Assembly: GCA_018238155.1 (NCBI GenBank)
Contig: JABCTZ010000022.1
Span: forward strand, 32,001-96,000
Direction of reading: 5' to 3'
Source of the DNA: Candidatus Heimdallarchaeota archaeon
GTDB taxonomy: Archaea > Asgardarchaeota > Heimdallarchaeia > JABLTI01
DNA length: 64,000 nucleotides
A program made the position numbers and the translations under genes. The notes under the pieces are model-generated. The model was not told the DNA's origin and ran no database searches. It was given only the letters and a program-made list of their open reading frames with translations. Positions within the stretch are counted from its first letter, which is position 1. Each line of letters begins with the position of its first letter. Below are positions 29,090 through 40,659 of the stretch, piece after piece.

Positions 29090-29110
29090 TTTTCTTTTAT
29101 TTTTCTTTTT
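29090..29110 (+). terminator. Oligo-T tract downstream of glyA
   Basis: ttttcttttatttttcttttt, about 60 nt after the stop; archaeal U-rich terminator pattern. Confidence 0.45.
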
Positions 29111-29125
29111 GTAAATTCAAATTAT

Positions 29126-29686
29126 TCAAGGATGTAAGTAGCCAGTTTTTCTCCTCACTTCTTTACCATCTTTATTGATATATGAATAATCAATTCTTAA
29201 ATAATATTTCTTTATATTGTATTTTTCCAACTTGCAATTCTCAAGTGTGTATGTTACTTTATCTTTTGGTGCAAGCTCAAATACTTTTGTGCCTTTAATA
29301 GATTTGATTTCATCAAAATAATTGTAACTCCATCCTACAGTTTTTAATACGTAAAATTCGATTTTATGTAAAGTAACAATTGTATCAAAATCACCCATAT
29401 TACGAACAATAAATTGTAAATTAATTATAAAATCAAATGAATAAGAGAAATATCTACGTTTTTGAGGTTTAAATGCTATTTTGATAAATTGTATTTTTGC
29501 ATCCTTTGGTATTTTTGATTCTATTTCCTTTATCCTTAATTCTTCCATTTTCTCGTCATAACGTTTTTTTCTTACAACTTCAAAAATTTTGAATATAGCT
29601 AGTATTATTCCAAAACCTAGAGAAACAATTGTTAAAATTTCCCAACCACTATCTATTGACCAATCAACTGCCATAATAAATCCCAA
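29126..29686 (-). CDS. Hypothetical protein with N-terminal TM anchor
   Basis: WEILTIVSLGFGIILAIF followed by a basic beta-rich domain. Confidence 0.6.
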   Translation of the reverse strand: MGFIMAVDWSIDSGWEILTIVSLGFGIILAIFKIFEVVRKKRYDEKMEELRIKEIESKIPKDAKIQFIKIAFKPQKRRYFSYSFDFIINLQFIVRNMGDFDTIVTLHKIEFYVLKTVGWSYNYFDEIKSIKGTKVFELAPKDKVTYTLENCKLEKYNIKKYYLRIDYSYINKDGKEVRRKTGYLHP

Positions 29687-29732
29687 TTGAAATTTAACAA
29701 TGAATTATATGAATCTTTTCAATGAAGGAACA

Positions 29733-30047
29733 TCAAGCAAAATACAAAATTACTGTAACAACAATTGAAATTATTGCTAAACCTAAAGCTACAAAGGAAA
29801 TTTTATTAGCTCTACTAGCTTTTCTATTTGCTTCCTTGTTTTCTGCTAAACTATCTTGGTCATAGCGTAACTTAATTCTCACATCTGGGTTATTAACAGT
29901 AATCATTACTAACTCGAGTAATCCACCACTTTCATATTCATATTTTTCAATAACTTTACGGCTAGTAAGACCGATTATAGCTGAAGTTGCATGTTTAAGC
30001 TTTCGTTTGATTCCTTTGAGAAAAGAATAAAAACTTTTTATCTTCAT
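29733..30047 (-). CDS. Small hypothetical protein with C-terminal TM helix
   Basis: ANRKASRANKISFVALGLAIISIVVTVILYFA; ATGA-coupled to the upstream ORF. Confidence 0.6.
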   Translation of the reverse strand: MKIKSFYSFLKGIKRKLKHATSAIIGLTSRKVIEKYEYESGGLLELVMITVNNPDVRIKLRYDQDSLAENKEANRKASRANKISFVALGLAIISIVVTVILYFA

Positions 30048-30223
30048 TTAACTCTACCCCTAATCGCTTGTAGAATCGTTCTACCAGTTCTTTGTGCTGA
30101 CATTTTTTTGAACCCGTTTTTCCTTTGTTGTATTTTGCCTTTCAAGACAGCAAAATTGTGCATAATTGACACAATCGGTTTGTCTAGTTGAAAAGTAAAA
30201 TTATCTAATATTCTTTTTTTCAT
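30044..30223 (-). CDS. Unannotated 59-aa basic protein (MKKRILDNF...AIRGRVK)
   Basis: ATGA overlaps with both neighbours (30220 stop and 30047 start); GGAG upstream. Confidence 0.6.
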   Translation of the reverse strand: MKKRILDNFTFQLDKPIVSIMHNFAVLKGKIQQRKNGFKKMSAQRTGRTILQAIRGRVK

Positions 30224-30564
30224 AATTCTCCCTCGATAACCATAAACAAAGTATCAACTACTTCGCTAATATCCTTACAAGCATACACTCTGTCATAACT
30301 GCTCATATCCACAAATTCATCGTGGAGAATTTTGTAATGAATTACTTCGGTAGTAAAATCATCATCAATATATGCGGTAAATCCTTCACTCTGCATTGAT
30401 CCAGCGAATGAATGGTCATATAATTCGTAATGGAATTTTACTTGTCCATTGCGAATGCTTATTTTTGCTGTATCATTGAATCGGAATTCTTCCTCAAGAC
30501 TTTGTTTAATAAAAAGCAAATTGCTTTCTTTTCTAAATCTTCTACGTTTTAATATCTGTAACAT
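30220..30564 (-). CDS. Hypothetical protein
   Basis: 114-aa ORF with a purine-rich RBS-like leader, within the coupled operon. Confidence 0.55.
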   Translation of the reverse strand: MLQILKRRRFRKESNLLFIKQSLEEEFRFNDTAKISIRNGQVKFHYELYDHSFAGSMQSEGFTAYIDDDFTTEVIHYKILHDEFVDMSSYDRVYACKDISEVVDTLFMVIEGEL

Positions 30565-30820
30565 TTTTTTCCCCTACCCTTTTCTTTTTTATCCATGTCC
30601 TTGACTAACATCAGCATCAATTTTATAATCACTGAAATCTGTCTTTTTCTTTTTATTTCGCCCCTTCTTTAACGGATTTTCTCCATAGGAAGAAAAATCA
30701 AAAATTATTTCTTTTTTACATCAATTTCTGTCATTTCTATTTAACCCACCCCAGATTTTTCCATCATCCCCAAAGATGTTCTCAATCTTTTACCACCTTT
30801 TTTTATGAAGTTATTATGGT

Positions 30821-31693
30821 CTATTGGTTTTGCAATAAAATCTCGATAATCTGATTGTCCTTTTGTTGCAATATATTCACTATAATCATCTTGAACTGTT
30901 TGTGAATCTCGATAAGCATCAATATCATTTTTTTTGTTGGTGGAATTGTTTGTGTATAATCTTGTTGAACTTGTGTAGCTTCTTCTGGATTGCGTCTAAG
31001 TAATCCAGTTGCTTGAATACCAAGCCAGGGTCTCGCTCTACTCTTCAATGAAAAATTTCTCATCGGTTTAACAACTAAGTTCCCGATACGAACTTTAGCA
31101 TCTATTTTTGATTTATTTGATTTGGCAATAATTTTATCGTTCAGGATCATCTCTACATGCCATTTTTCTCTGTCATCATTCTCGTATTGAAAATTAACAA
31201 TCTGTTTTGTATCAAATTGTATTTGTGTTTCAAAAGACCATTCATTTTTATCTTCTGCAGTGAATTCAACGATTTGGCTTTCATTGATTATAAAAGTATG
31301 ATTTACTCCGTTTTCTTCTTGCTTTGATTGAACGAAAACATTATCATCTCGTGCTGTGAAAATCTTTTCTATCCATTGACCGCCTTGTGGTCTAACTGAA
31401 AATGTGTAAGTTTCATCTTGGAACAAATTAGTTAATTGATATGTTTTTGCTTGAATTTTTTCCGCAATATTCAAATTGAACCCTTTTACTAGAACATCAA
31501 AACTATCAACAATATTTGATTTCCAAGTTATTAGTGCTGAATCACTTGTTGGTTTGATTTGTAGATTAGTGATTGCACTTTCTTCTTGTTGATTTTTGAA
31601 AAATCGTCCTGTAAATCTATTATTTTTTAAATTTTGAAATTTCTCTTTTTTACTCGCAACTATTTTTATTTTTGCATTTATCCTTTCTGTCAT
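30821..31693 (-). pseudogene. Fibronectin type III-domain protein, probably frameshifted near the 3' end
   Basis: ITNLQIKPTSDSALITW...YQLTNL..DETYTFSVRP is FN3-like. After the A8 run (30928-30935) the alternative frame NDIDAYRDSQTVQDDYSEYIA looks like the true continuation. Confidence 0.55.
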
Positions 31694-31807
31694 TTTTTGT
31701 TTTACCTCTCATATAAATTTGAAAGGGATAGAAAGAAAGCACATTTTGGAGGAATGTTTAAAAAATTATTTAAGCGAAATCTCCCTACCCCAAATCAGCA
31801 TAATTAT

Positions 31808-32107
31808 TTAAATTGCAATATCCAACAAATGAATTGTTGCACTTTTTGGTCGCCCATCTCCAATAGCGAATGTCTTTTCCGCTTGCGTTATCTGTTTTGT
31901 ATGACCAAAATTCATTGTTCTTGTTTCGGCAATTCCTGAACGAATTTTGTTAATGATCTGACCTTGACCGATTTGCATCTGTCCAACTTGCATTCTTCTA
32001 CTTCTCTTTATTCCAACAACATTTTTTACGTTTTGAATGATTGCTTTTCCTCTTGTTCTAACATTAGATAATATAGTATTTGAAATTATGATTACCCCCA
32101 ATTTCAT
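31808..32107 (-). CDS. Hypothetical protein, possibly a fragment
   Basis: 99-aa ORF; an in-frame TGA lies shortly upstream. Confidence 0.35.
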   Translation of the reverse strand: MKLGVIIISNTILSNVRTRGKAIIQNVKNVVGIKRSRRMQVGQMQIGQGQIINKIRSGIAETRTMNFGHTKQITQAEKTFAIGDGRPKSATIHLLDIAI

Positions 32108-32238
32108 CGGTTGATTTGTTTTTAAAGCAGTTAATCATCTGCTATACGAAAAGTGATTTGTATTATATCTTACTTTGCGTTCTTTAGATTAATTAGTCTT
32201 TTGTTTGTTTAAACGTTTCTTTTAACTATTCTGTAACA

Positions 32239-32370
32239 TTAACTCAAAAAGAACCCACCAAAATCAATACTTATTTTTTCTTTTTTACATTCTAAGCATT
32301 TTCGTTTATTGTTTTCTACTATTTGATTAGTTTTTTTACCACAATTTGAGCAGTAGACATATACTTTCAT
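32239..32370 (-). CDS. Unannotated 43-aa zinc-ribbon protein
   Basis: MKVYVYCSNCGKKTNQIVENNKRKCLECKKEKISIDFGGFFLS; CxxC...CxxC; GGGGTGA upstream. Confidence 0.7.
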   Translation of the reverse strand: MKVYVYCSNCGKKTNQIVENNKRKCLECKKEKISIDFGGFFLS

Positions 32371-32474
32371 TCATCTATCACCCCTTTTTCATTCTTCATT
32401 CTTTTTTCTCACCTATGCGGTTTTCTCATTTTTTTCATATTGTATTGAATAGTATTATATTTAATAGTATTATT

Positions 32475-32502
32475 TTTACGAACAATAGTAAATGTTCGTA
32501 AA
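32475..32502. promoter_or_regulatory. Perfect 10-8-10 inverted repeat; candidate recombination site or operator
   Basis: TTTACGAACA-ATAGTAAA-TGTTCGTAAA, 9 bp downstream of the integrase stop codon. Confidence 0.55.
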
Positions 32503-32511
32503 GTATGCTGT

Positions 32512-33096
32512 TCATAAATCTGCATAACTCATATCTTCTCCTAGTCCTTCTATTGGTCTTGCATACAGTTTTGTAGTAGATGGTGACTTGTGCCTCGCTA
32601 ATCGAGAAGCATTAATTGAATCACGATATTTATCTAAAACTTGTGAAATATAATATCGCCTGAGTTGATGAGCAGTCAAAACCTTTCGTTTTGGATACTC
32701 TTTTGGTAAAAATTTGTTGATTTTTGTTATCTGATATGCTAAAGTATCATAACTACCAACAAGATGTTTAATTTTTGTTATGCCTTGCTTCCGTAAATTT
32801 GTAATCAAATCGTGTAATGGTTTATTGATTGCAATTGCTCTCATAGATTCCTCAGATTTTGGTGTCCAAAAACCAGCATAACGTTTCTTATGTCGTTTTT
32901 TTGCTTGTTTTTGATTGTCTTTGTATTCATATTCTTGCCAATAGTAACATTTTCTTCGTTTACAATGACTACAAGAACACTTCACAGGCGATAGTTTAAT
33001 TGAACCATATTTGCCCCCACCATCAATAATATGTTTGTCAAAATCAAAGTGGTACATCTCAGATAATCTTAAACCTGAAAATGCAAACATCTTCAA
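32512..33096 (-). CDS. Short tyrosine recombinase (catalytic domain) with CxCxxC insertion, SNJ2-like; N-terminus uncertain
   Basis: SGLRLSE, WTPKS..R, AHQLRR, LARH, TTKLY give the full R-K-H-R-H-Y set. The frame stays open upstream to about 33186 (KELEELVEEQPK). Confidence 0.85.
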   Translation of the reverse strand: MKMFAFSGLRLSEMYHFDFDKHIIDGGGKYGSIKLSPVKCSCSHCKRRKCYYWQEYEYKDNQKQAKKRHKKRYAGFWTPKSEESMRAIAINKPLHDLITNLRKQGITKIKHLVGSYDTLAYQITKINKFLPKEYPKRKVLTAHQLRRYYISQVLDKYRDSINASRLARHKSPSTTKLYARPIEGLGEDMSYADL

Positions 33097-33112
33097 AAAT
33101 AGTAAACTCTTT

Positions 33113-33593
33113 TCAAATCGTTTTGGTTGTTCTTCTACTAACTCTTCTAATTCTTTTATTACTAAATGTAATTTGCCAAATTGAACCTAAACCAGCTGGT
33201 GCATCAAAAATTACATACTCTGCTGTTAATTCTGAATGGTTGATAATATCAGCAACAAATTGCGACATACTTTCCCCAACGACTGACTTAACTGAACCCA
33301 CCAACATTGAAGTACATATTACTTCAATCGGATTTGCTTCTGTATTATGCACCCAAATGAAAGGTAATATTTTTCCGCCATCAGAAATTTGCATAAAATT
33401 TTCCTTGAAGGAATTCCCAGAAAATTCTGAATAACTTGAACTTGAAATATCTAAATCTATGTAAGCTACCCTATGTGTTTTTGATAATTCTTTGGCAAGT
33501 AACATCGCAAAAGTGGTTTATCAAGTGAATTAACTCAAGAGTTAATACAATACCTGAACCACCTTTGATAGATGCGTTTATCACTGATTTCAT
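33113..33593 (-). CDS. ParA/MinD-family ATPase, intron-split: join(33593..33551, 33519..33113); C-terminally truncated
   Basis: Spliced product MKSVINASIKGGSGKTTFAMLLAKELSKTHRVAYIDLD...YVIFDAPAGLG (149 aa). The start ATG overlaps the upstream gene's stop (TAATG). Confidence 0.8.
33520..33550 (-). other. 31-nt bulge-helix-bulge (BHB) intron candidate in the parA mRNA
   Basis: mRNA AAAGGUGGUU-CAGG-UA^U-UGUAUUAACUC-UU-GAGUUAAUUCA-CUUG-AU^A-AACCACUUUU: 10-bp exon helix, 4-bp central helix, two 3-nt bulges. Canonical cuts restore GGT AAA ACC. Confidence 0.85.
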
Positions 33594-34861
33594 TACTCAT
33601 CCTCTTCCACTATCAAATCTTCATAATTGATTTGTTGTTGAAATATTTCCCGCGTTTCATTATGAACTGGTGGTGGTGGTATATCTACATGCGGTCGTGG
33701 ATTTGTCAACACCTCAAATTCACGTGTCTTAGCATCTTGATTGACATTAGATTGACCAATTCTACTATCCTTGGGCATAGGTCTATCAGTTATCGTCTGT
33801 ATTAGTTGAGTCCCTACCCCTCGGTCAATGGCTTTATCTAAGAGCTTCATACCATCAGTTGAAAATGATTGACTTGCTTGAACCTTTACTTCAGCTAAAC
33901 GTGCATCAAAAAGCCTATTTTCGAGAGCTTTAATCTCCGCATCTTTTTCTTTAAGTTCAGATTTATGCTCTCGTTTAATATCTTTTAATTCCTCTTCGAT
34001 ACGTTCAACTTTCTTTTTGTATTCTTCTGCTTGATACTGTGCTACGTCGATTTGTCCATCTTTATCATCTAATTGCTCATCAAATCGTTCTTGTATTTTT
34101 TCCCATTCTCTTTCTTTTTCTTTATATTCCATATCCAGTTCGTATTTTTTATAAAATTCTGTAAAGTTTTGTGGTTTTGTTTCTTGAACAGAATGTCTAG
34201 AGAATCTTCTATCATCTACTGAATGTTTATTATCACCATAGTAATTAAATAACGCATCATCATATGCATCAATGATTTGTCTTATTTTACCCTTACTTTT
34301 CGTTCCTGCATCCCAGATTTCAAAATAATGCCTCACTTCTTTACTATCCAATAGTTCTCTATTTTGTTCAGATTTTCTACTGACATCTTGAATGAATTTC
34401 TTATTACACCCATAATCAGTTAAAACTTCTCGAAGAATTTCTGTGTGGATTTGGTATTTTTGTAATACAGGTGGTTCTTTTCTCTGTGTGTAAACAGGTT
34501 CCTCATCATCATATTCATCTTCATGATCATCTTCAAAATAATTTTCAACTTCTCGACGAGTTTGTGGTCGTTCTTTTTCCAGTAATGGCACTTTATCTTC
34601 TATATCTTCGTTTAATTCCTCTTCCAATTCAGCAATTCTTTCCGCTTTTTTCACTTGTGAATCAAAACTTTGTTCTTGTTCTTCTTCTTGGTCAAAAGAA
34701 AGAATAATCATTTCATCAGTTATTTGTGGGCTAAAACGATGGTTGGCAATTTTTGTAAATTTCTTCCCACAGGATAAACATTCTGCCCAAGTTTCAGAAC
34801 TTGTAGTCCATTGAAACTTTGTTTCTTCATTACATTCAGTACATATTGAATTTGTTGTCAT
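33593..34861 (-). CDS. Zinc-ribbon + acidic + coiled-coil hypothetical protein
   Basis: CTEC...CLSC N-terminus and a long heptad-like EYKKKVERIEEELKDIKREHKSELKEKDAEIKALENRL segment; GAGGAG RBS. Confidence 0.75.
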   Translation of the reverse strand: MTTNSICTECNEETKFQWTTSSETWAECLSCGKKFTKIANHRFSPQITDEMIILSFDQEEEQEQSFDSQVKKAERIAELEEELNEDIEDKVPLLEKERPQTRREVENYFEDDHEDEYDDEEPVYTQRKEPPVLQKYQIHTEILREVLTDYGCNKKFIQDVSRKSEQNRELLDSKEVRHYFEIWDAGTKSKGKIRQIIDAYDDALFNYYGDNKHSVDDRRFSRHSVQETKPQNFTEFYKKYELDMEYKEKEREWEKIQERFDEQLDDKDGQIDVAQYQAEEYKKKVERIEEELKDIKREHKSELKEKDAEIKALENRLFDARLAEVKVQASQSFSTDGMKLLDKAIDRGVGTQLIQTITDRPMPKDSRIGQSNVNQDAKTREFEVLTNPRPHVDIPPPPVHNETREIFQQQINYEDLIVEEDE

Positions 34862-35037
34862 ATCATAAACTCCTCTTCAAATATATTGGGTGTTGGATTA
34901 TAAGCTCCCAAAGCACTCCGAAAGAGCTAGAAAAGCATTATATTAATGTACAGAAAAACAAAGATATTCTTAACTGTTGCGTACATCATATATGATTTTA
35001 TTATGGAAAATATGAAAAAAGTATACAAATTGATTTC

Positions 35038-35212
35038 TTCATAATGGAATGAAAATCCATTCATAATGAACTCATATTCAATTCATTATGAGCCATAATG
35101 GAAAACTTTCATAATGAAACAACATCAAAAGTATTATACTTTCATTATGTTTTTAATTAAGTATGAATGAGCATAGTGGAAAATTGTATGAGAAAGGAAA
35201 TTCCCATAATGG
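35038..35212. repeat. Array of CATWATG near-palindromes (iteron- or parS-like)
   Basis: Exact copies start at 35040, 35062, 35084, 35094, 35110, 35143 and 35205, with a CATAGTG variant at 35172. Confidence 0.75.
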
Positions 35213-35453
35213 TTTAGAGTATGAGAATCTACTCAATACCCTCCCCCCTATACTCTATGATATTACTCATAAATCACGTAAACAAGATTATCTATAATTT
35301 GAGAAATTAGATTTGATTCCTCTAAAACATTCTAGAAAAAGTTTCCTTCAATGATTTTCTGAAATCAACCATAAATATATTCCATGCTTGAACTTCTCGA
35401 ACATATTTTTTATGTTAAATGTATGAAGAAGAAAAAAAAGTTGAATGGCATAT

Positions 35454-36593
35454 TCATGCCATATAAAATAATGCGGAAGTATTTCCGTCGAATTCTTGGG
35501 GTTTATCAAAATTTCCATCAAAAGGAGGGGACGTATATGGAAAGGCTTTAAAAGCAAAAGTGAAAACAGTTTCCATTGAAGTAGTTGCACTGCTCTTGTA
35601 CTGTAAAAGCCAAGCAAATTCTAAGAAGTAATATGTCCAAAAACCATTTTGTTTATCAGGAAAACCATATCCAACACCCTTTTCAGTACATGTGGTAGTG
35701 CAATAAACACGAGCATTATTACCCATATTCATCAAGTCAGATCCAAAGCCACCTGAACGGCAATGGTCCAGAAAGACGAAAATTCTTGCTGCTAATGCAT
35801 TCTCAAGTATTGCTGTAAGTTCCGTATCATAAAAATTACCATTTTCACCATTTTCTCCAGAATCACAGTCCCAAGCACATATGTAGGATGACCCTATACC
35901 ATCACCACTACCATGTCCAGAGGATATAAAAGCAATAATGTCATTGTCATCAGCCATGTTGACCATATTGGTTAGAGCTTGTTTGATATTGTATTCAGTT
36001 GCTTTACCATCATATTTTGGATAGTTTGACGCGTTACTATCACCATAGACCCAAATGTGATCATAATCCATCTGAGCTCCTGACAGGTGATTATACCAAT
36101 CTGTAGCATCTTCATCACAGAAACTAAGATCCCCGCCAACTTTATAATCGGAGATTCCAACAATGACTGCAAATCTCATACTATGACCTACAACGTTAAC
36201 AGTAACTTGATTAACAGCATAATTACCAGCAGCATCAAACGCAATAGCTGTTAGAAGGTGGGTTCCATCATTGACCGAAAAACCGGCATTCATAATATCG
36301 TATGATTTTTCATAAGGAGCAGTATTGTCATAGCCGAGATTAAAACTACCTAAAGCAAAAGACACTCTTGTTACGCCAACGTTATCATTTGCATTTGCTC
36401 GAACAGTAAATGCACCAGATATTGTTGCACCCGTAGAATGGCTAGTAATTGCTACTGTTGGAGGAGTAGTATCAGCGGGAGGAGGATCTGGACCTGGAAC
36501 AAATCCAAAACCCAGAGCGTTTGATATTGGCATCAAGAAAAAGCTCAATCCAAAAAATATCAATAATAATTTTTTTAAAAATCGTTTTTTCAT
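35454..36593 (-). CDS. Secreted Ig-like domain + caspase-fold (C14/C13-like) cysteine peptidase
   Basis: Signal peptide; DTTPPTVAIT...NDNVGVTRV...DAAGN (Big domain); FAVIVGISDY, SSGHG, FLDHCRSGG. Confidence 0.85.
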   Translation of the reverse strand: MKKRFLKKLLLIFFGLSFFLMPISNALGFGFVPGPDPPPADTTPPTVAITSHSTGATISGAFTVRANANDNVGVTRVSFALGSFNLGYDNTAPYEKSYDIMNAGFSVNDGTHLLTAIAFDAAGNYAVNQVTVNVVGHSMRFAVIVGISDYKVGGDLSFCDEDATDWYNHLSGAQMDYDHIWVYGDSNASNYPKYDGKATEYNIKQALTNMVNMADDNDIIAFISSGHGSGDGIGSSYICAWDCDSGENGENGNFYDTELTAILENALAARIFVFLDHCRSGGFGSDLMNMGNNARVYCTTTCTEKGVGYGFPDKQNGFWTYYFLEFAWLLQYKSSATTSMETVFTFAFKAFPYTSPPFDGNFDKPQEFDGNTSALFYMA

Positions 36594-36705
36594 TTATCAT
36601 TTCACCTATTAATTTTACCTTTTCATAACTTCTTCCCCTAAAAAAGGGTTAAATTTATAACTATTCTATCAATTTATAAATTTACTTTGAAGCTTATTCA
36701 ACTCT

Positions 36706-37659
36706 TCATTTAAAATCATCCAATGTGATACTATCCAGAAGATTGGCTATCACTTCGATTTTTGATTCAATTTGCCTTTGTTTTTCCATATTGGAAGAAT
36801 CTTTAAAGTACATTAACGCTTCATTTAACTCAGTTTTAAACTGAAAGAGCTTACTATAATGTTCAAGTGTAAGTTGATTATGTGGTAACCGAAAGAAGTT
36901 ATTCAACTGTTCTTCAATCTGGGAGATACTTTTTGAATAGATCAAATCCTTAAATTGAATGTATTCATCGGTAATTTGTAAACCAAGGTCTTCTTTCAGT
37001 TTTTTCTTCTCTATCAATCCCTCTAGTCGTTTTTGTTTCAAATTTACTTTCTGTGAGAGCTGAGCAAAGGAGATTTCCCCTTGAGTTTCCTTAGCAATCA
37101 ATAGTACTCCTTTTGTCTTTTCATATTGTTTTTGCATTTTGTTTGTGAACATCAAATACAAACTGAAAGTTATTATTGATACAATGGATACTATCAGATC
37201 AATAACTAATGCAATCATTCCAGCGTATTTACAATTAAAAAATCTTATAGACTCTATTCTAATAACTGTCATCATAGATAAATGCCATTCCAAGTTATTT
37301 CTAATTTCTATAATAGTCCGAGGTGGCATCCGTATATAATTAGTTTTACAAGCAAATACTGTTGAAGGTTCTAATCGAAACTGCCATGAGTTATCATACG
37401 ATACAACAATTCCATATATAAATATGTGAGAACTAAGATTTGTCTCATAAACTTTTCGTATCTGTTCCCAAATACTACTATTGGACATATCAACTGCTAG
37501 CTGATTTCCATCAATGTCTTCTATAATTGCCCATCTGTTGGTCTCATGTTTAATATCTTCTGAATTATTAATAATGAGAAAGTAAGTCGGAAACCCAAAA
37601 AGTAATACCAAAATTACAAACAAGGAAAATAACGCTATTATTTTTCTTCGCTCTTTCAT
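36706..37659 (-). CDS. Membrane protein (two TM helices) with a helical/wHTH-like C-terminal domain
   Basis: N-terminal and central TM helices; GEISFAQLSQKVNL. Confidence 0.6.
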   Translation of the reverse strand: MKERRKIIALFSLFVILVLLFGFPTYFLIINNSEDIKHETNRWAIIEDIDGNQLAVDMSNSSIWEQIRKVYETNLSSHIFIYGIVVSYDNSWQFRLEPSTVFACKTNYIRMPPRTIIEIRNNLEWHLSMMTVIRIESIRFFNCKYAGMIALVIDLIVSIVSIITFSLYLMFTNKMQKQYEKTKGVLLIAKETQGEISFAQLSQKVNLKQKRLEGLIEKKKLKEDLGLQITDEYIQFKDLIYSKSISQIEEQLNNFFRLPHNQLTLEHYSKLFQFKTELNEALMYFKDSSNMEKQRQIESKIEVIANLLDSITLDDFK

Positions 37660-38140
37660 TCTGTATCCCTTCTCTAATTATACAATTACCATTTTTCAAA
37701 CTCTTCTTTAGTAAATCTACTTTAATAAAAATCTTCTCTGCTTAATTTGGTGAAAATTAAATGTTATTAAAAAACTATTCACCACATGAAAGATTGGAGC
37801 TCTAGCAGATTCATATATTTTTCTATGAGAACTGTGAAAGAGCTCTGTGCAAAGCAACAGCTAACAGTAACAGCGTTGTATTGAAACAAAGGGATTTCCA
37901 GGAAGTTTCTTCTATCATTTACATAAACCTGATTTCAACAATAGATAACGATTGCTCTCTATCAAGTGCTTCATAAATTAATTCTCAACTATTCATTCTT
38001 TTTCTTCACCTTTAGTGAATTAATTACTTCATTTGTTTCAACAACAAAAGCAACAAATCTACAAATATCCCTAATACCTTCTTTACGTTCTTCACTCATC
38101 AAAACGCCTTCTTCACCTTTCATGATCCGTTTCAAATTGA

Positions 38141-38935
38141 TTATTCTGTGTTGAATTCTTTCTTAGGATTGAACCAACCACCATCTTTTTCGATTTTAAA
38201 ACTATCTGTGCCAATTTTAATTTCATGTTGTCCTACACCATAATACTTGGAGATTTCAACGTCACCATTCCAAGTGACAGAAGCACTGTTACCAATAGTT
38301 TCGATAGATTCAAGATGCCCATAAGAACCATCATCAATATTCAAATAAGTTCCTAATCTAATTTCGTAATCTGTTCCACCATTTACAGTTACAGAAACTG
38401 TGTGACTGAAAATTACAGAATCCTGTTCGTATGGGAATGATGCGTGATTTTGAGGATCAAGTAAATCTATAGAAATGTCAATGTTGGTAAATTCGTATGT
38501 ATTAAAAATGGCAACATTAGTTTGTTTTGTTCCTAATGTCAAAATTACAACATAAATATCTTGTTTCAATGTTATGATAAAATAGAAGGTATGCATACCA
38601 AAAGTGAATCCAGCATAATCAGCAGATACTGGTATAATGAAAGGATCTGCAGTATGCCAAGTATTCGTTGTTCCATTAACTACACTTGTTCCATCGATTA
38701 CTAAAACCCACTCGACGTATAAACTTGACATTTCCATAGGATCAATTTGAACATGTGCACAAAAATGCTGAACATTAGATTCGTCGCATCCGAAAAATGT
38801 CTCTCCATCGCCAACTGAATTTGAATAATTAACATTATAAGCACTCCAACTATCAACGTCAGGAGCAACATAATGTACTGTAGGTAAACCAACAATTATT
38901 ACAACTACTAAAGATACTAATAATTTCCTTTTCAT
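38141..38935 (-). CDS. Secreted beta-rich hypothetical protein, possibly 3'-truncated
   Basis: MKRKLLVSLVVVIIVGL signal-like N-terminus (ATG at 38935). Confidence 0.6.
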   Translation of the reverse strand: MKRKLLVSLVVVIIVGLPTVHYVAPDVDSWSAYNVNYSNSVGDGETFFGCDESNVQHFCAHVQIDPMEMSSLYVEWVLVIDGTSVVNGTTNTWHTADPFIIPVSADYAGFTFGMHTFYFIITLKQDIYVVILTLGTKQTNVAIFNTYEFTNIDISIDLLDPQNHASFPYEQDSVIFSHTVSVTVNGGTDYEIRLGTYLNIDDGSYGHLESIETIGNSASVTWNGDVEISKYYGVGQHEIKIGTDSFKIEKDGGWFNPKKEFNTE

Positions 38936-39084
38936 TTTTTTACTTCCTAAGTTCTGGTCTTTCAACACCGACAAGAGGCATCTTATCGAAATGAGATTAT
39001 TAATAAAACCTTTATCCTTTTCTTACAATTCTAAAGATGAAAGAAAAAACATAAATCTTGTGGTTGAGTAAAAAAAGAAAAACA

Positions 39085-40659
39085 TTAAGCTTTTTCTGCT
39101 AATGCTTCTTTGTATTTCTCAAGTCTTTGAATCATTGAATTAATTTCTTTACGAGATAATTCAGGTTCAATTTCTATTTCTTTTCTTTCCTCGATTAATT
39201 GGTCATCTGCTTCTCTTTGTATGGAATACACTTCTTTCATTTCTTCAACTTCAGATTTAAGTTCAATGAAAGTTTTCTCCATTTTGATGTTTTCGTTGAG
39301 CAGTTCGTTGTAAGACTTTTCTAGTTGCATATATTTTGCATCATCTTTTTCGAGGTCAAATAATCGCATATCAACACATTTTTGCATTTCAGAAATAATT
39401 TTAGATTTAAGTTTTTGATAGAAAGATTTTCTATCTCCATAGTGATAATCACTCATAACCGAAGAATCTTCTCCAGAACCATTTCCTCGCCAATGTCCCA
39501 TCAATATCTCGACAATTGTGCTGTCCATTTGTGCTTCTTCACGACATTTTCGATAGAAGGTTTTGCGGAAGTGTGAGGGAGTTATATTGTTTTCAATTTC
39601 AGCTAGCTTAACTAACTTGGTGGTGATTCTTCTGATACTGCCAGGATAAATTCGTTTCTTTGAATAAAAGCTTGTAAAGATGAATGTTTCACCATCTATT
39701 GAATCAGTATAATGATATTGTTTCCGTAAATGTGATTGAATTAACTCAAGTGCTTTCTTTGATATCACGCCATAAAAACCGATTCTCGTTTTGCTCCTTA
39801 CGTGATGAAAAAGATAGAATTCTTCTGTTAGTTCTTGAGGATTGAATGGATCAATGAGATGTTTAATTGACTTGTATTGTAATCGGCACACATCAATATT
39901 TGATAGTCCTGAGCTCCAGAGAGTATGTAAAACTGCTCGTTCAAATAAATCAGCGTGATAAAGCATTGCTCTAAAATCTTCTTTCTGTATTGATTCCTTA
40001 AAATTCTCTAGTTCAAAATCCTCTTCACTCATTATCCCTTTTGTGACTGTTGGGAAATCTTGTTTTCGCCATTGAAATTCAATATCAAGAAATTCTCTAA
40101 AGAAAATTTTCACATAGTTTACTTCTGTCCAAGCGACTTTGTGCTTTACTTTTTGCACTCGCTTATCATAGAAATTTTTTAACATACTTTTGATTATTCC
40201 TTTGCTCAAGAGATTTTTCTCAGAATTTTTCTTCAACTTTGTTGGCGTTGTATCGTGAAAAACACAAAAGTTAGTTAGTGCTCTTGTAACATTATCGGTT
40301 GTTCCTTTGTTCGAGTAATAATTCTTCCAACTTTGCATTAACACATCATCATTAAAGCGATTCTTCTTTTTCTTTGGGTTTCTTTCAATTTTTATCTTTG
40401 CTCCATAGAATCTTAGAAAACGTCTTACGTGTGAGGCAGATATTTTTGTTGATTTAGTTTTTAGTTGATATTCAAGCAGAAAAGGAATTTCTTTTTCAGC
40501 AGATTTGAGCAATTCTTCAACCGTAGAAATTTTACGATAGTTCATATAATTTATTACCGAATAAATATGACTTCGTTTTGTGTTACTGTTTTTTATTTCA
40601 CTTTCTACGAACTTGACTAATTTTTCATTTTCTGTTAAGGGATTTTTAGGTTTTGGCAT
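39085..40659 (-). CDS. Large tyrosine recombinase/integrase with C-terminal coiled coil
   Basis: WSSGLSNIDV, VRSKT, TPSHFRKTF, ILMGH, SDYHY; duplicated helical N-terminal domains. Confidence 0.8.
   Translation of the reverse strand: MPKPKNPLTENEKLVKFVESEIKNSNTKRSHIYSVINYMNYRKISTVEELLKSAEKEIPFLLEYQLKTKSTKISASHVRRFLRFYGAKIKIERNPKKKKNRFNDDVLMQSWKNYYSNKGTTDNVTRALTNFCVFHDTTPTKLKKNSEKNLLSKGIIKSMLKNFYDKRVQKVKHKVAWTEVNYVKIFFREFLDIEFQWRKQDFPTVTKGIMSEEDFELENFKESIQKEDFRAMLYHADLFERAVLHTLWSSGLSNIDVCRLQYKSIKHLIDPFNPQELTEEFYLFHHVRSKTRIGFYGVISKKALELIQSHLRKQYHYTDSIDGETFIFTSFYSKKRIYPGSIRRITTKLVKLAEIENNITPSHFRKTFYRKCREEAQMDSTIVEILMGHWRGNGSGEDSSVMSDYHYGDRKSFYQKLKSKIISEMQKCVDMRLFDLEKDDAKYMQLEKSYNELLNENIKMEKTFIELKSEVEEMKEVYSIQREADDQLIEERKEIEIEPELSRKEINSMIQRLEKYKEALAEKA

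What the first reader, a model, noticed from the sequence alone, without database searches (positions are those of the whole stretch)
33509..33566. Canonical bulge-helix-bulge intron inside the Walker A codon of a mobile-element parA/minD gene
Seen: the minus strand reads ATG AAA TCA GTG ATA AAC GCA TCT ATC AAA GGT GGT TCA GGT A|31 nt|AA ACC ACT TTT GCG ATG. Removing 33550-33520 gives MKSVINASIKGGSGKTTFAMLLAKEL...IDLD...DAPAG; unspliced, the frame stops after 40 codons. The start ATG overlaps the upstream stop (TAATG at 33593), supporting it as the real start. The RNA folds as exon helix AAAGGUGGUU/AACCACUUUU (10 bp, one G-U), central helix CAGG/CUUG, bulges UAU and AUA, and intron stem UGUAUUAACUC/GAGUUAAUUCA. 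Known: archaeal splicing endonuclease (EndA) cuts after the second base of each 3-nt bulge and RtcB ligates; such mRNA introns are rare and best known from cbf5 in Thermoproteota. Those cut positions give exactly the 31 nt that protein homology independently requires. Inference: this is host-EndA-dependent mRNA splicing in an Asgard mobile element. It could be a switch tying the ATPase to host RNA processing, or evidence that BHB introns spread into mRNAs. It is conceptually close to eukaryotic tRNA-ligase-dependent HAC1/XBP1 splicing. I know of no description in Asgard elements but cannot search.
Basis: partly seen in the sequence, partly recalled or inferred. Interest (0 to 1): 0.95.

Follow-up and report, generated by a model that had tools for sequence, protein, structure and literature searches.

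The report
tRNA-type intron in ParA-like ATPase gene
A 31-base insert shaped like the introns archaea cut out of tRNAs sits in the ATP-binding-loop codons of a mobile-element ATPase gene of an Asgard archaeon. Intact relatives carry such inserts at the same and nearby spots, so the message very probably has to be spliced, although this particular copy is a truncated dead gene.

Summary
On the minus strand, 33550-33520 is a 31-nt insert after the first base of the Walker A lysine codon. It folds as a canonical bulge-helix-bulge (BHB). Removing it restores KGGSGKTT.

(1) This copy is dead. A ~1.4 kb deletion (junction 33134-33186) removed the last two thirds of the Mrp/ParA-like gene and the start of the next integrase gene.

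(2) The insert is not unique.
- Three otherwise intact relatives (L031, L032, L033) carry 31-32 nt inserts at the same codon phase. Six of ten inner-helix pairs show compensatory changes.
- Four more family members (L038-L041) carry 22-32 nt BHB inserts at three other places within the same 21-nt P-loop coding stretch.
- L031 and L032 show strong purifying selection (pN 0.18, pS saturated).
- In five of the eight inserts, a perfect 4-bp helix with two 3-nt bulges falls exactly on the junction that homology requires.

The host is an Asgard archaeon with two EndA paralogues and RtcB. Its commonest tRNA-intron length is 31 nt.

No RNA data could be obtained, so splicing is inferred. Published coding-sequence precedent is cbf5 only. 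This scan has noted similar mRNA introns on other DNA.

The parts
33551..33593 (-). 5' exon: ATG to the first base of the Walker A Lys codon (MKSVINASIKGGSG + A)
   Evidence: The ATG overlaps the upstream stop (TAATG). The exon is collinear with the N-termini of P0002, P0003, L023, L031 and L032.
33520..33550 (-). 31-nt BHB intron (inner hairpin 33549-33526, CUUG loop)
   Evidence: It is unique in the own genome and absent from 11 related genomes at up to 3 mismatches.
33557..33567 (-). Outer (exon) helix, 5' strand, made of the K-G-G codons
   Evidence: It pairs with 33508-33518 (11 bp, one G-U).
33508..33518 (-). Outer (exon) helix, 3' strand, made of the (K)-T-T-F-A codons
33553..33556 (-). 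Central 4-bp helix, exon strand CAGG. It is followed by the 5' bulge UAU (33552-33550), cut after 33551.
33519..33525 (-). Central helix, intron strand CUUG (33525-33522), and the 3' bulge AUA (33521-33519), cut after 33520
33113..33519 (-). 3' exon remnant. It is homologous to the Mrp/ParA-like ATPase only as far as about 33170 (DAPAGLGSIWQIT), then runs into unrelated codons and a stop.
33134..33186 (.). Deletion junction. About 1.4 kb is missing relative to L023: ATPase residues ~150-413, a 159-aa Zn-ribbon gene and the first ~17 integrase codons.
   Evidence: window 33496-33186 = L023 1165-1472; window 33134-32472 = L023 2875-3532..
32512..33168 (-). Tyrosine integrase, N-terminally truncated
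   Evidence: (phrog_1).
33593..34861 (-). Upstream operon partner: a 422-aa Zn-ribbon and coiled-coil protein, conserved ahead of the ATPase in all relatives
29100..39290 (-). Integrated mobile element between glyA (SHMT) and a host gene. A same-genus genome (G010) carries a 20-kb related element at the same site.
   Evidence: synteny with G010. (collinear with L031).

Best explanation
The 31 nt at 33550-33520 are a tRNA-type (bulge-helix-bulge) intron in a pre-mRNA. In a transcript of the coiled-coil/ATPase operon, the K-G-G and T-T-F codons pair to form the outer helix. Exon CAGG pairs with intron CUUG to form the 4-bp central helix. The intron's own hairpin forms the inner helix. The host's two-subunit splicing endonuclease (EndA) would cut after the second base of each 3-nt bulge, and RtcB would join the exons. 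That creates the AAA lysine codon of KGGSGKT (inferred, not observed). The intron belongs to a lineage of introns kept at this codon in intact relatives, where splicing is needed to make the ATPase. In the window itself a later (or earlier) 1.4-kb deletion killed the gene. Here the intron is therefore a relic, and splicing would yield only a 149-aa fragment. Across the wider family, such introns were gained several times within the 21-nt Walker A coding stretch.
For: (1) Geometry matches homology. The only deletion that restores GKT is the one set by canonical BHB cut sites. Only 2 of 625 local alternatives are as good.

(2) Same-site inserts occur in independent assemblies. L031 (JGI) and L032 (Logan) have 32 nt; L033 (Logan, 33% aa identity) has 31 nt. 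All lie after base 1 of the GKT Lys codon. Gene callers started all three at the same internal Met as in the window.

(3) These genes are otherwise intact and full length. Between L031 and L032, pN = 0.18 while pS = 0.75, which is saturated.

(4) Covariation in the four same-site introns: 81% of cells are paired against 30-43% in slid controls. Six of ten inner-helix pairs and one central pair change on both sides. 0 of 500 shuffles reach this.

(5) Four further family members have 22-32 nt inserts in the K1, G3 or G5 codons of KGGxGKT. L039, L040 and L041 have perfect 4-bp central helices and 3-nt bulges at the coding-consistent cuts. Each has an intron-less relative at 75-77% identity.

(6) The host has two EndA paralogues and RtcB. 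Asgard EndA is reported as (alpha-beta)2 with the L1 loop, the type linked to pre-mRNA splicing (PMC5829648).

(7) 31 nt is this genome's commonest tRNA-intron length. It is the length of 7 of 12 ARAGORN introns. Thirteen of 36 Rfam tRNA hits are 102-108 nt long.

(8) The 5' exon plus intron are 93% identical between L031 and L032, against 71% for the rest of the gene.
Against: No RNA evidence exists: no RNA run was listed and no reads cover the site.

The window's own gene is truncated, so nothing selects for splicing here.

Nine relatives lack any insert, including the closest full-length one, L023.

The BHB of L031, L032 and L038 is relaxed: 3 of 4 central pairs. For L031 and L032 the best thermodynamic register would remove 34 nt rather than 32.

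L033 lacks an outer helix next to the bulge and starts with ATT instead of ATG.

The canonical conformer is only about 4% of the window's computed ensemble.

A genome-wide scan found no other convincing mRNA intron in this genome.
Confidence: 0.8

Rival explanations
1. A DNA-level insertion (a small palindromic element or repair product) in a decaying gene. It is never removed from RNA, and the BHB look is a coincidence of a hairpin landing in self-complementary P-loop codons.
For: The window's gene is a pseudogene. The K-G-G and T-T-F codons are inherently complementary, so the outer helix comes for free: the intron-less G010 allele has the same exon DNA but for one base. The insert is a near-perfect palindrome.
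Against: There is no second copy of the 31-mer in the genome, in 11 relatives or in viral contigs. There is no target-site duplication beyond a TA. Same-site inserts occur in intact genes under purifying selection. The helices show compensatory changes. Cut sites coincide with the coding junction in five independent inserts.
Confidence: 0.07
2. The intron is a regulated switch. Splicing by host EndA/RtcB is rate-limiting or conditional, so that the element's partition/maintenance ATPase is made only in certain host states, analogous in logic to HAC1/XBP1.
For: Every insert found sits in the Walker A codons, where the unspliced message cannot give an active ATPase. The 5' exon and intron are unusually conserved between L031 and L032.
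Against: There is no evidence of conditional splicing. Most family members (115 of 128 proteins in hand) have an uninterrupted P-loop, and close intron-less relatives exist for each intron, so the intron is dispensable. The search was biased towards N-terminal interruptions. This copy is dead.
Confidence: 0.1
3. Assembly artefact: the 31 nt (a common k-mer size) were introduced by the assembler.
For: 31 is a usual k. The source reads could not be examined.
Against: The insert is not a copy of neighbouring sequence. Analogous inserts stand at the same codon in contigs from different samples and assemblers (JGI 3300033149; Logan SRR13394437, two contigs).
Confidence: 0.02
4. Translational bypassing: the ribosome hops over the hairpin, as in phage T4 gene 60.
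For: A stable hairpin lies within a coding gap.
Against: There is no matching take-off/landing codon pair: GGU has no GGU landing site before AAACC. The gap ends inside a codon. BHB geometry and its covariation are unexplained by hopping.
Confidence: 0.01

Closest known systems
BHB intron of the cbf5 (pseudouridine synthase) pre-mRNA in Crenarchaeota (Watanabe 2002; Yokobori 2009, PMC2738675)
   Same: A short ORF-less BHB intron inside a protein-coding sequence. It occurs in archaea with hetero-oligomeric EndA, is patchily present among relatives (gain and loss), and is removed by the tRNA-splicing machinery.
   Different: A different gene (Mrp/ParA-like ATPase), a different phylum (Asgard host; the wider family sits on contigs labelled Bathyarchaeia, Thermoproteota or Hadarchaeales), and a mobile element rather than a housekeeping gene. 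There are several insertion positions within one 21-nt motif. Splicing has not been shown experimentally here. cbf5 of this genome is uninterrupted.
tRNA introns of Asgard archaea (bioRxiv 10.64898/2026.10.13.758758)
   Same: Repeated recent gains that sit at BHB-forming sites, with the arrival route unknown. This genome's tRNA introns are mostly 31 nt, with hairpins closed by stable tetraloops.
   Different: The target is an mRNA hairpin made of codons, not a tRNA. That preprint does not mention mRNA (0 occurrences of the term in its text).
BHB intron in the 5' UTR of Haloferax HVO_1309 (PMC7714728)
   Same: An EndA substrate in an mRNA.
   Different: That intron lies in an untranslated leader. 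Here the intron interrupts a codon of a catalytic motif.
HAC1/XBP1 unconventional splicing
   Same: Endonuclease plus RtcB-type ligation of an mRNA that changes the reading frame.
   Different: It uses Ire1 rather than EndA, and stem-loop sites rather than a BHB. It is regulated by stress. No regulation is shown here.
Inteins and homing introns in P-loops of ATPases
   Same: Selfish insertions concentrated in the most conserved nucleotide-binding motif.
   Different: Those spread through homing endonucleases at the DNA level. No endonuclease gene is associated here, and removal would be at the RNA level by host enzymes.

Membership tests
Archaeal BHB (EndA-type) intron | Two 3-nt bulges on opposite strands separated by a 4-bp helix, with the correct handedness | tested here: met
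   Handedness and register were calibrated on this genome's tRNA-Pro, Arg and Tyr introns.
Archaeal BHB (EndA-type) intron | Flanking helices h (exon) and h' (intron) | tested here: met
   h is 11 bp. h' is 2 bp + a U.U mismatch + 7-8 bp.
Archaeal BHB (EndA-type) intron | Cutting after base 2 of each bulge yields the functional mature sequence | tested here: met
   It restores KGGSGKTT collinear with intron-less homologues. The solution is unique.
Archaeal BHB (EndA-type) intron | Structure kept by compensatory changes among homologous introns | tested here: met
   Four same-site introns: 7 pairs change on both sides, and 0 of 500 shuffles reach this. Only four sequences were available.
Archaeal BHB (EndA-type) intron | Host encodes the splicing endonuclease and RtcB ligase | tested here: met
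   Two PF01974 genes and one PF01139 gene.
Archaeal BHB (EndA-type) intron | Spliced RNA or excised (circular) intron observed | not testable with these tools
   No RNA holder was listed, and the two DNA runs do not cover the site.
Mrp/NBP35 (PF10609) branch of ParA/MinD-type P-loop ATPases | Deviant Walker A KGGxGK[ST], Walker A' and Walker B | tested here: met
   After removing the insert: KGGSGKT, IDLD, DAPAG.
Mrp/NBP35 (PF10609) branch of ParA/MinD-type P-loop ATPases | Profile match over the whole ATPase domain | tested here: not met
   The window fragment gives no Pfam hit and only a weak phrog_164 ParA-like hit. The full-length relative L023 matches PF10609 at 6e-28. The window lacks residues ~150-413.
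HAC1/XBP1-type regulated mRNA splicing | Conditional, signal-dependent cleavage | not tested
   No expression data.

The most novel reading that the evidence does not exclude
The Walker A coding sequence of a widespread family of archaeal mobile-element Mrp/ParA-like ATPases is a hot spot for repeated gain of tRNA-type introns. At least five independent gains fall at four positions within 21 nt, in elements of Asgard and other archaea. One possible cause is that the Gly-Gly and Thr/Ser codons are self-complementary and mimic an anticodon stem that makes any inserted hairpin spliceable. Another is that the introns home there. In intact elements the partition ATPase can then only be made with the host's tRNA-splicing enzymes.
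Probability: 0.45. Interest if true: 0.85.

Novelty: new variant of a known kind. Interest (0 to 1): 0.75.

Why it matters
In print, the only coding sequence known to need the archaeal tRNA-splicing pathway is cbf5 of Crenarchaeota (stated as such in PMC7714728). This case adds three things. It is in a second gene family. It is in mobile elements, including those of Asgard archaea, the closest prokaryotic relatives of eukaryotes. And there were several independent gains in one catalytic motif. Together these give a concrete system for asking how BHB introns arrive at new sites, which the recent Asgard tRNA census (bioRxiv 10.64898/2026.10.13.758758) leaves open, and whether mobile elements exploit or merely tolerate host RNA splicing. 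It also shows that gene callers systematically truncate such genes: all intron-bearing copies were called from an internal start.

Tried and rejected
- RNA evidence: no RNA holder was listed. The two sediment DNA runs laid on 31000-36000 give no cover at the intron.
- MITE or repeat: the 31-mer has no other copy in the own genome, in 11 genomes of the order at up to 3 mismatches, or in viral contigs. The partial 14-16 nt matches have no BHB context.
- Other mRNA introns in this genome: a strict BHB scan of both strands (34,098 hits) was compared with a mirror-handed control (34,176 hits). It showed no excess of frame-restoring hits in any length class. The best 31-nt candidate, C11:129468, is better read as an ordinary signal-peptide start. 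cbf5 is uninterrupted.
- No length-31 peak stands out of the noise in that scan.
- First homology searches: the 50%-cluster representative search showed only intron-less or fragmentary relatives. I therefore first thought the insert was a singleton in a pseudogene. The 90%-cluster search for longer proteins overturned this.
- The rest of the ATPase gene was sought by tblastn in the whole genome and not found.
- The exact 130-aa product is not on record elsewhere.
- The family was sought in IMG/VR twice. Only distant generic ParA genes were found, so an unbiased census of intron positions along the gene could not be made.
- Rfam: no hit in the window. ARAGORN: no tRNA in the window.

Full report
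**Observation.**
- The ATG at 33593 overlaps the stop of a 422-aa upstream ORF.
- The frame closes after 40 codons.
- Removing exactly 33550-33520 (31 nt) gives MKSVINASIKGGSGKTTFAMLLAKEL...IDLD...DAPAG.

The RNA folds locally at -20.5 kcal/mol (z -4.3). The canonical bulge-helix-bulge (BHB) conformer has an 11-bp exon helix, the central helix CAGG/CUUG, bulges UAU and AUA, and an inner hairpin. It lies 1.3 kcal above a register variant.

I wrote a BHB scanner and calibrated its handedness and cut register on this genome's own tRNA-Pro, Arg and Tyr introns. The insert fits the same rule. Of 625 neighbouring cut/length combinations, two have a full central helix plus an inner helix. One of these is the pair that protein homology requires.

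**Host and machinery.** The window lies on contig C19 of a 4.08-Mb, 33% GC assembly. The genome encodes:
- an Arf-family GTPase;
- two EAP30 proteins and one Vps25 ESCRT-II protein;
- an actin scoring 446 bits.

It is therefore an Asgard archaeon. A same-genus record is nevertheless titled Bathyarchaeia. The genome has two EndA paralogues and RtcB. This matches the (alpha-beta)2 EndA with L1 loop reported for Asgard (PMC5829648).

Its tRNA genes are rich in introns. Seven of 12 short ARAGORN introns are exactly 31 nt. Thirteen of 36 Rfam tRNA hits are 102-108 nt long. tRNA-Lys at C19:14023-14158 carries two 31-nt introns that are 24/31 identical. The insert thus has the commonest length of this genome's genuine EndA substrates.

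**The gene and its state in the window.** Homologues are ~410-aa proteins. They have an Mrp/NBP35-type ATPase domain (PF10609, 6e-28 for L023) and a conserved C-terminal domain. The gene always follows a Zn-ribbon/coiled-coil gene and stands near a short tyrosine integrase.

The locus lies in a ~10-kb integrated element between glyA and a host gene. A same-genus genome, G010, has a 20-kb related element at the same site. An intact 13-kb relative, L031, is collinear with the window's element.

In the window, homology to the ATPase stops at about residue 148 and the integrase begins without its first ~17-25 codons. DNA alignment to L023 places a ~1.4-kb deletion between 33186 and 33134. The missing part is nowhere in the assembly. 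This copy is therefore a pseudogene. The idea that the intron acts as a switch for this ATPase cannot hold here.

**The turn.** The first searches showed only intron-less relatives (L003, L023/L002, L024, G010, L026, L027, L008/L029). At that point I rated the insert a singleton in a dead gene.

A search of the 90%-identity clusters for longer proteins then found P0005 and P0006. Both are 392 aa, and both were called from the same internal Met (MLLAKAL...) as the window's ORF. Their DNA (L031, L032) reads ATG...GGT A, then a 32-nt insert, then AA TCC ACC. This is the same codon and the same phase.

A distant member, P0011/L033 (33% identity), has a 31-nt insert at the same phase. It has a 10-bp inner stem closed by a UGCG loop and a central helix CUGG/CUGG. 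Its 5' exon matches the N-terminus of the intron-less P0012 residue for residue.

These contigs come from different samples and assemblers, which disposes of an assembly artefact as a general explanation.

**Evidence that the inserts are removed.**
- L031 and L032 are intact over 392 codons, with pN 0.18 while pS is saturated at 0.75. The genes are alive, yet cannot encode a P-loop unless the insert is removed.
- On an alignment of the four same-site introns, the BHB model pairs 81% of cells, against 30-43% when partners are slid. Six of ten inner-helix pairs and one central pair change on both sides. No shuffle of 500 reaches this.
- Between L031 and L032, the 5' exon (41/42) and intron (28/32) are far more alike than the rest of the gene (71%). 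This points to constraint on RNA structure or to co-conversion.

**Further introns in the same motif.** Among 128 family proteins in hand, 13 lack a P-loop at the N-terminus. DNA for four of these shows inserts at other positions of KGGxGKT:

| Locus | Insert | Position | Central helix | Other features |
|---|---|---|---|---|
| L039 | 30 nt | first Lys codon | CCCU/GGGG | inner stem 10 bp |
| L038 | 32 nt | first Lys codon | relaxed, 3 of 4 pairs | – |
| L040 | 22 nt | second Gly codon | GCGG/CCGC | bulges AAA/AAC |
| L041 | 30 nt | Gly codon before Lys | GCGU/GCGC | contains an in-frame stop |

In L033, L039, L040 and L041, as in the window, the coding-consistent cuts are the only or nearly the only local solution with a perfect central helix.

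On a tree of 121 family members, the eight intron-bearing genes are scattered. Well-supported branches force at least six changes of state. Each intron-bearing gene has an intron-less relative at 75-77% identity. The K6-site intron (K6 = the Lys of GKT, the sixth residue of KGGxGKT) occurs in the window, in L031/L032 and in the deeper L033, but not in L023, P0002/7/9, P0008 or L008. It is either old with several losses, or it was gained twice at one bond.

**Weak points.**
- Nothing shows RNA.
- L031, L032 and L038 have only 3 of 4 central pairs. For L031 and L032 the most stable register would remove 34 nt, not 32.
- L033 has no exon helix abutting the 3' bulge and has ATT where its relative has ATG.
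- My way of finding introns (gene calls lacking the P-loop) is biased towards the N-terminus, so the hot-spot claim is provisional. The hits with partial coverage all sit on short contigs, which is consistent with contig ends, but I could not inspect them.
- A strict genome-wide scan with a mirror-handed control found no other mRNA intron in this genome.

**Comparison with what is known.** The mechanism proposed is that of the cbf5 pre-mRNA intron of Crenarchaeota. As of 2020 that was the only coding-sequence case in print (PMC7714728, PMC2738675). The Haloferax HVO_1309 intron lies in a leader.

A 2026 preprint documents repeated gains of tRNA introns at BHB-forming sites in Asgard archaea and leaves their route of arrival open. 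The term mRNA does not occur in its text.

The new elements here are the gene family, its residence in mobile elements, and several independent insertions within one 21-nt catalytic motif. The Gly-Gly and Thr/Ser-Thr codons of that motif are self-complementary. The intron-less G010 allele has the same exon DNA as the window but for one base, and that base change completes the outer helix in the window.

Earlier notes of this scan report BHB introns in other protein genes on other DNA, some in Asgard archaea. I did not test those.

**Verdict.** The reading as an EndA-type mRNA intron is well supported by comparison (0.8) but unproven by RNA. This copy is a relic in a truncated gene. The family-level pattern is the more interesting result.

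Noticed in passing
own genome C19:14023-14158 (minus strand; 17.8 kb before the window): tRNA-Lys(CUU) carries two 31-nt introns, at 37/38 and about 43/44. They are 24/31 identical and separated by a 6-nt exon. This suggests intron duplication within one gene.
   Followed up: partly
L028 / G010 (same genus as the window's genome): The public record is titled 'Candidatus Bathyarchaeia archaeon'. The window's genome carries Arf, ESCRT-II (EAP30, Vps25) and a 446-bit actin, so the genus looks like Asgard and the label seems wrong.
   Followed up: partly
L031:5912-6030 versus L032:173-290: The 5' exon, the intron and the first ~30 nt of the 3' exon are 87-97% identical between two genes that are otherwise 71% identical with saturated synonymous sites. 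This points either to RNA-structure constraint or to recent co-conversion of the intron with its flanks.
   Followed up: partly
L002:1130-1236: In a variant of the L023 element, the same ATPase gene is cut off after codon 62 by unrelated DNA that ends an ORF on the other strand. A different insertion has broken this gene.
   Followed up: no
L033:4916-4965: The intron-bearing gene of L033 has ATT where its intron-less relative P0012 has the ATG start codon. This is either a non-canonical start or early decay.
   Followed up: no
window 29100-39290 versus L020/L021 (G010:C32:91826-111825): Two related but diverged elements (10 kb and 20 kb, proteins 26-56% identical) occupy the same chromosomal site between glyA and a 524-aa gene in two species of one genus.
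   Followed up: partly
own genome C11:129468-129498 (+): A 31-nt stretch has a 9-bp outer helix and a BHB-like fold at the start of a >1000-aa secreted-protein ORF. Removing it would extend the ORF by 43 codons, but the unspliced reading gives a normal signal peptide. Probably chance.
   Followed up: partly
window 32512-33168 (-): The integrase next to the ATPase remnant lacks its first ~17-25 codons relative to L023 and G010 and has no in-frame start before the catalytic Arg region. It is probably inactive.
   Followed up: partly
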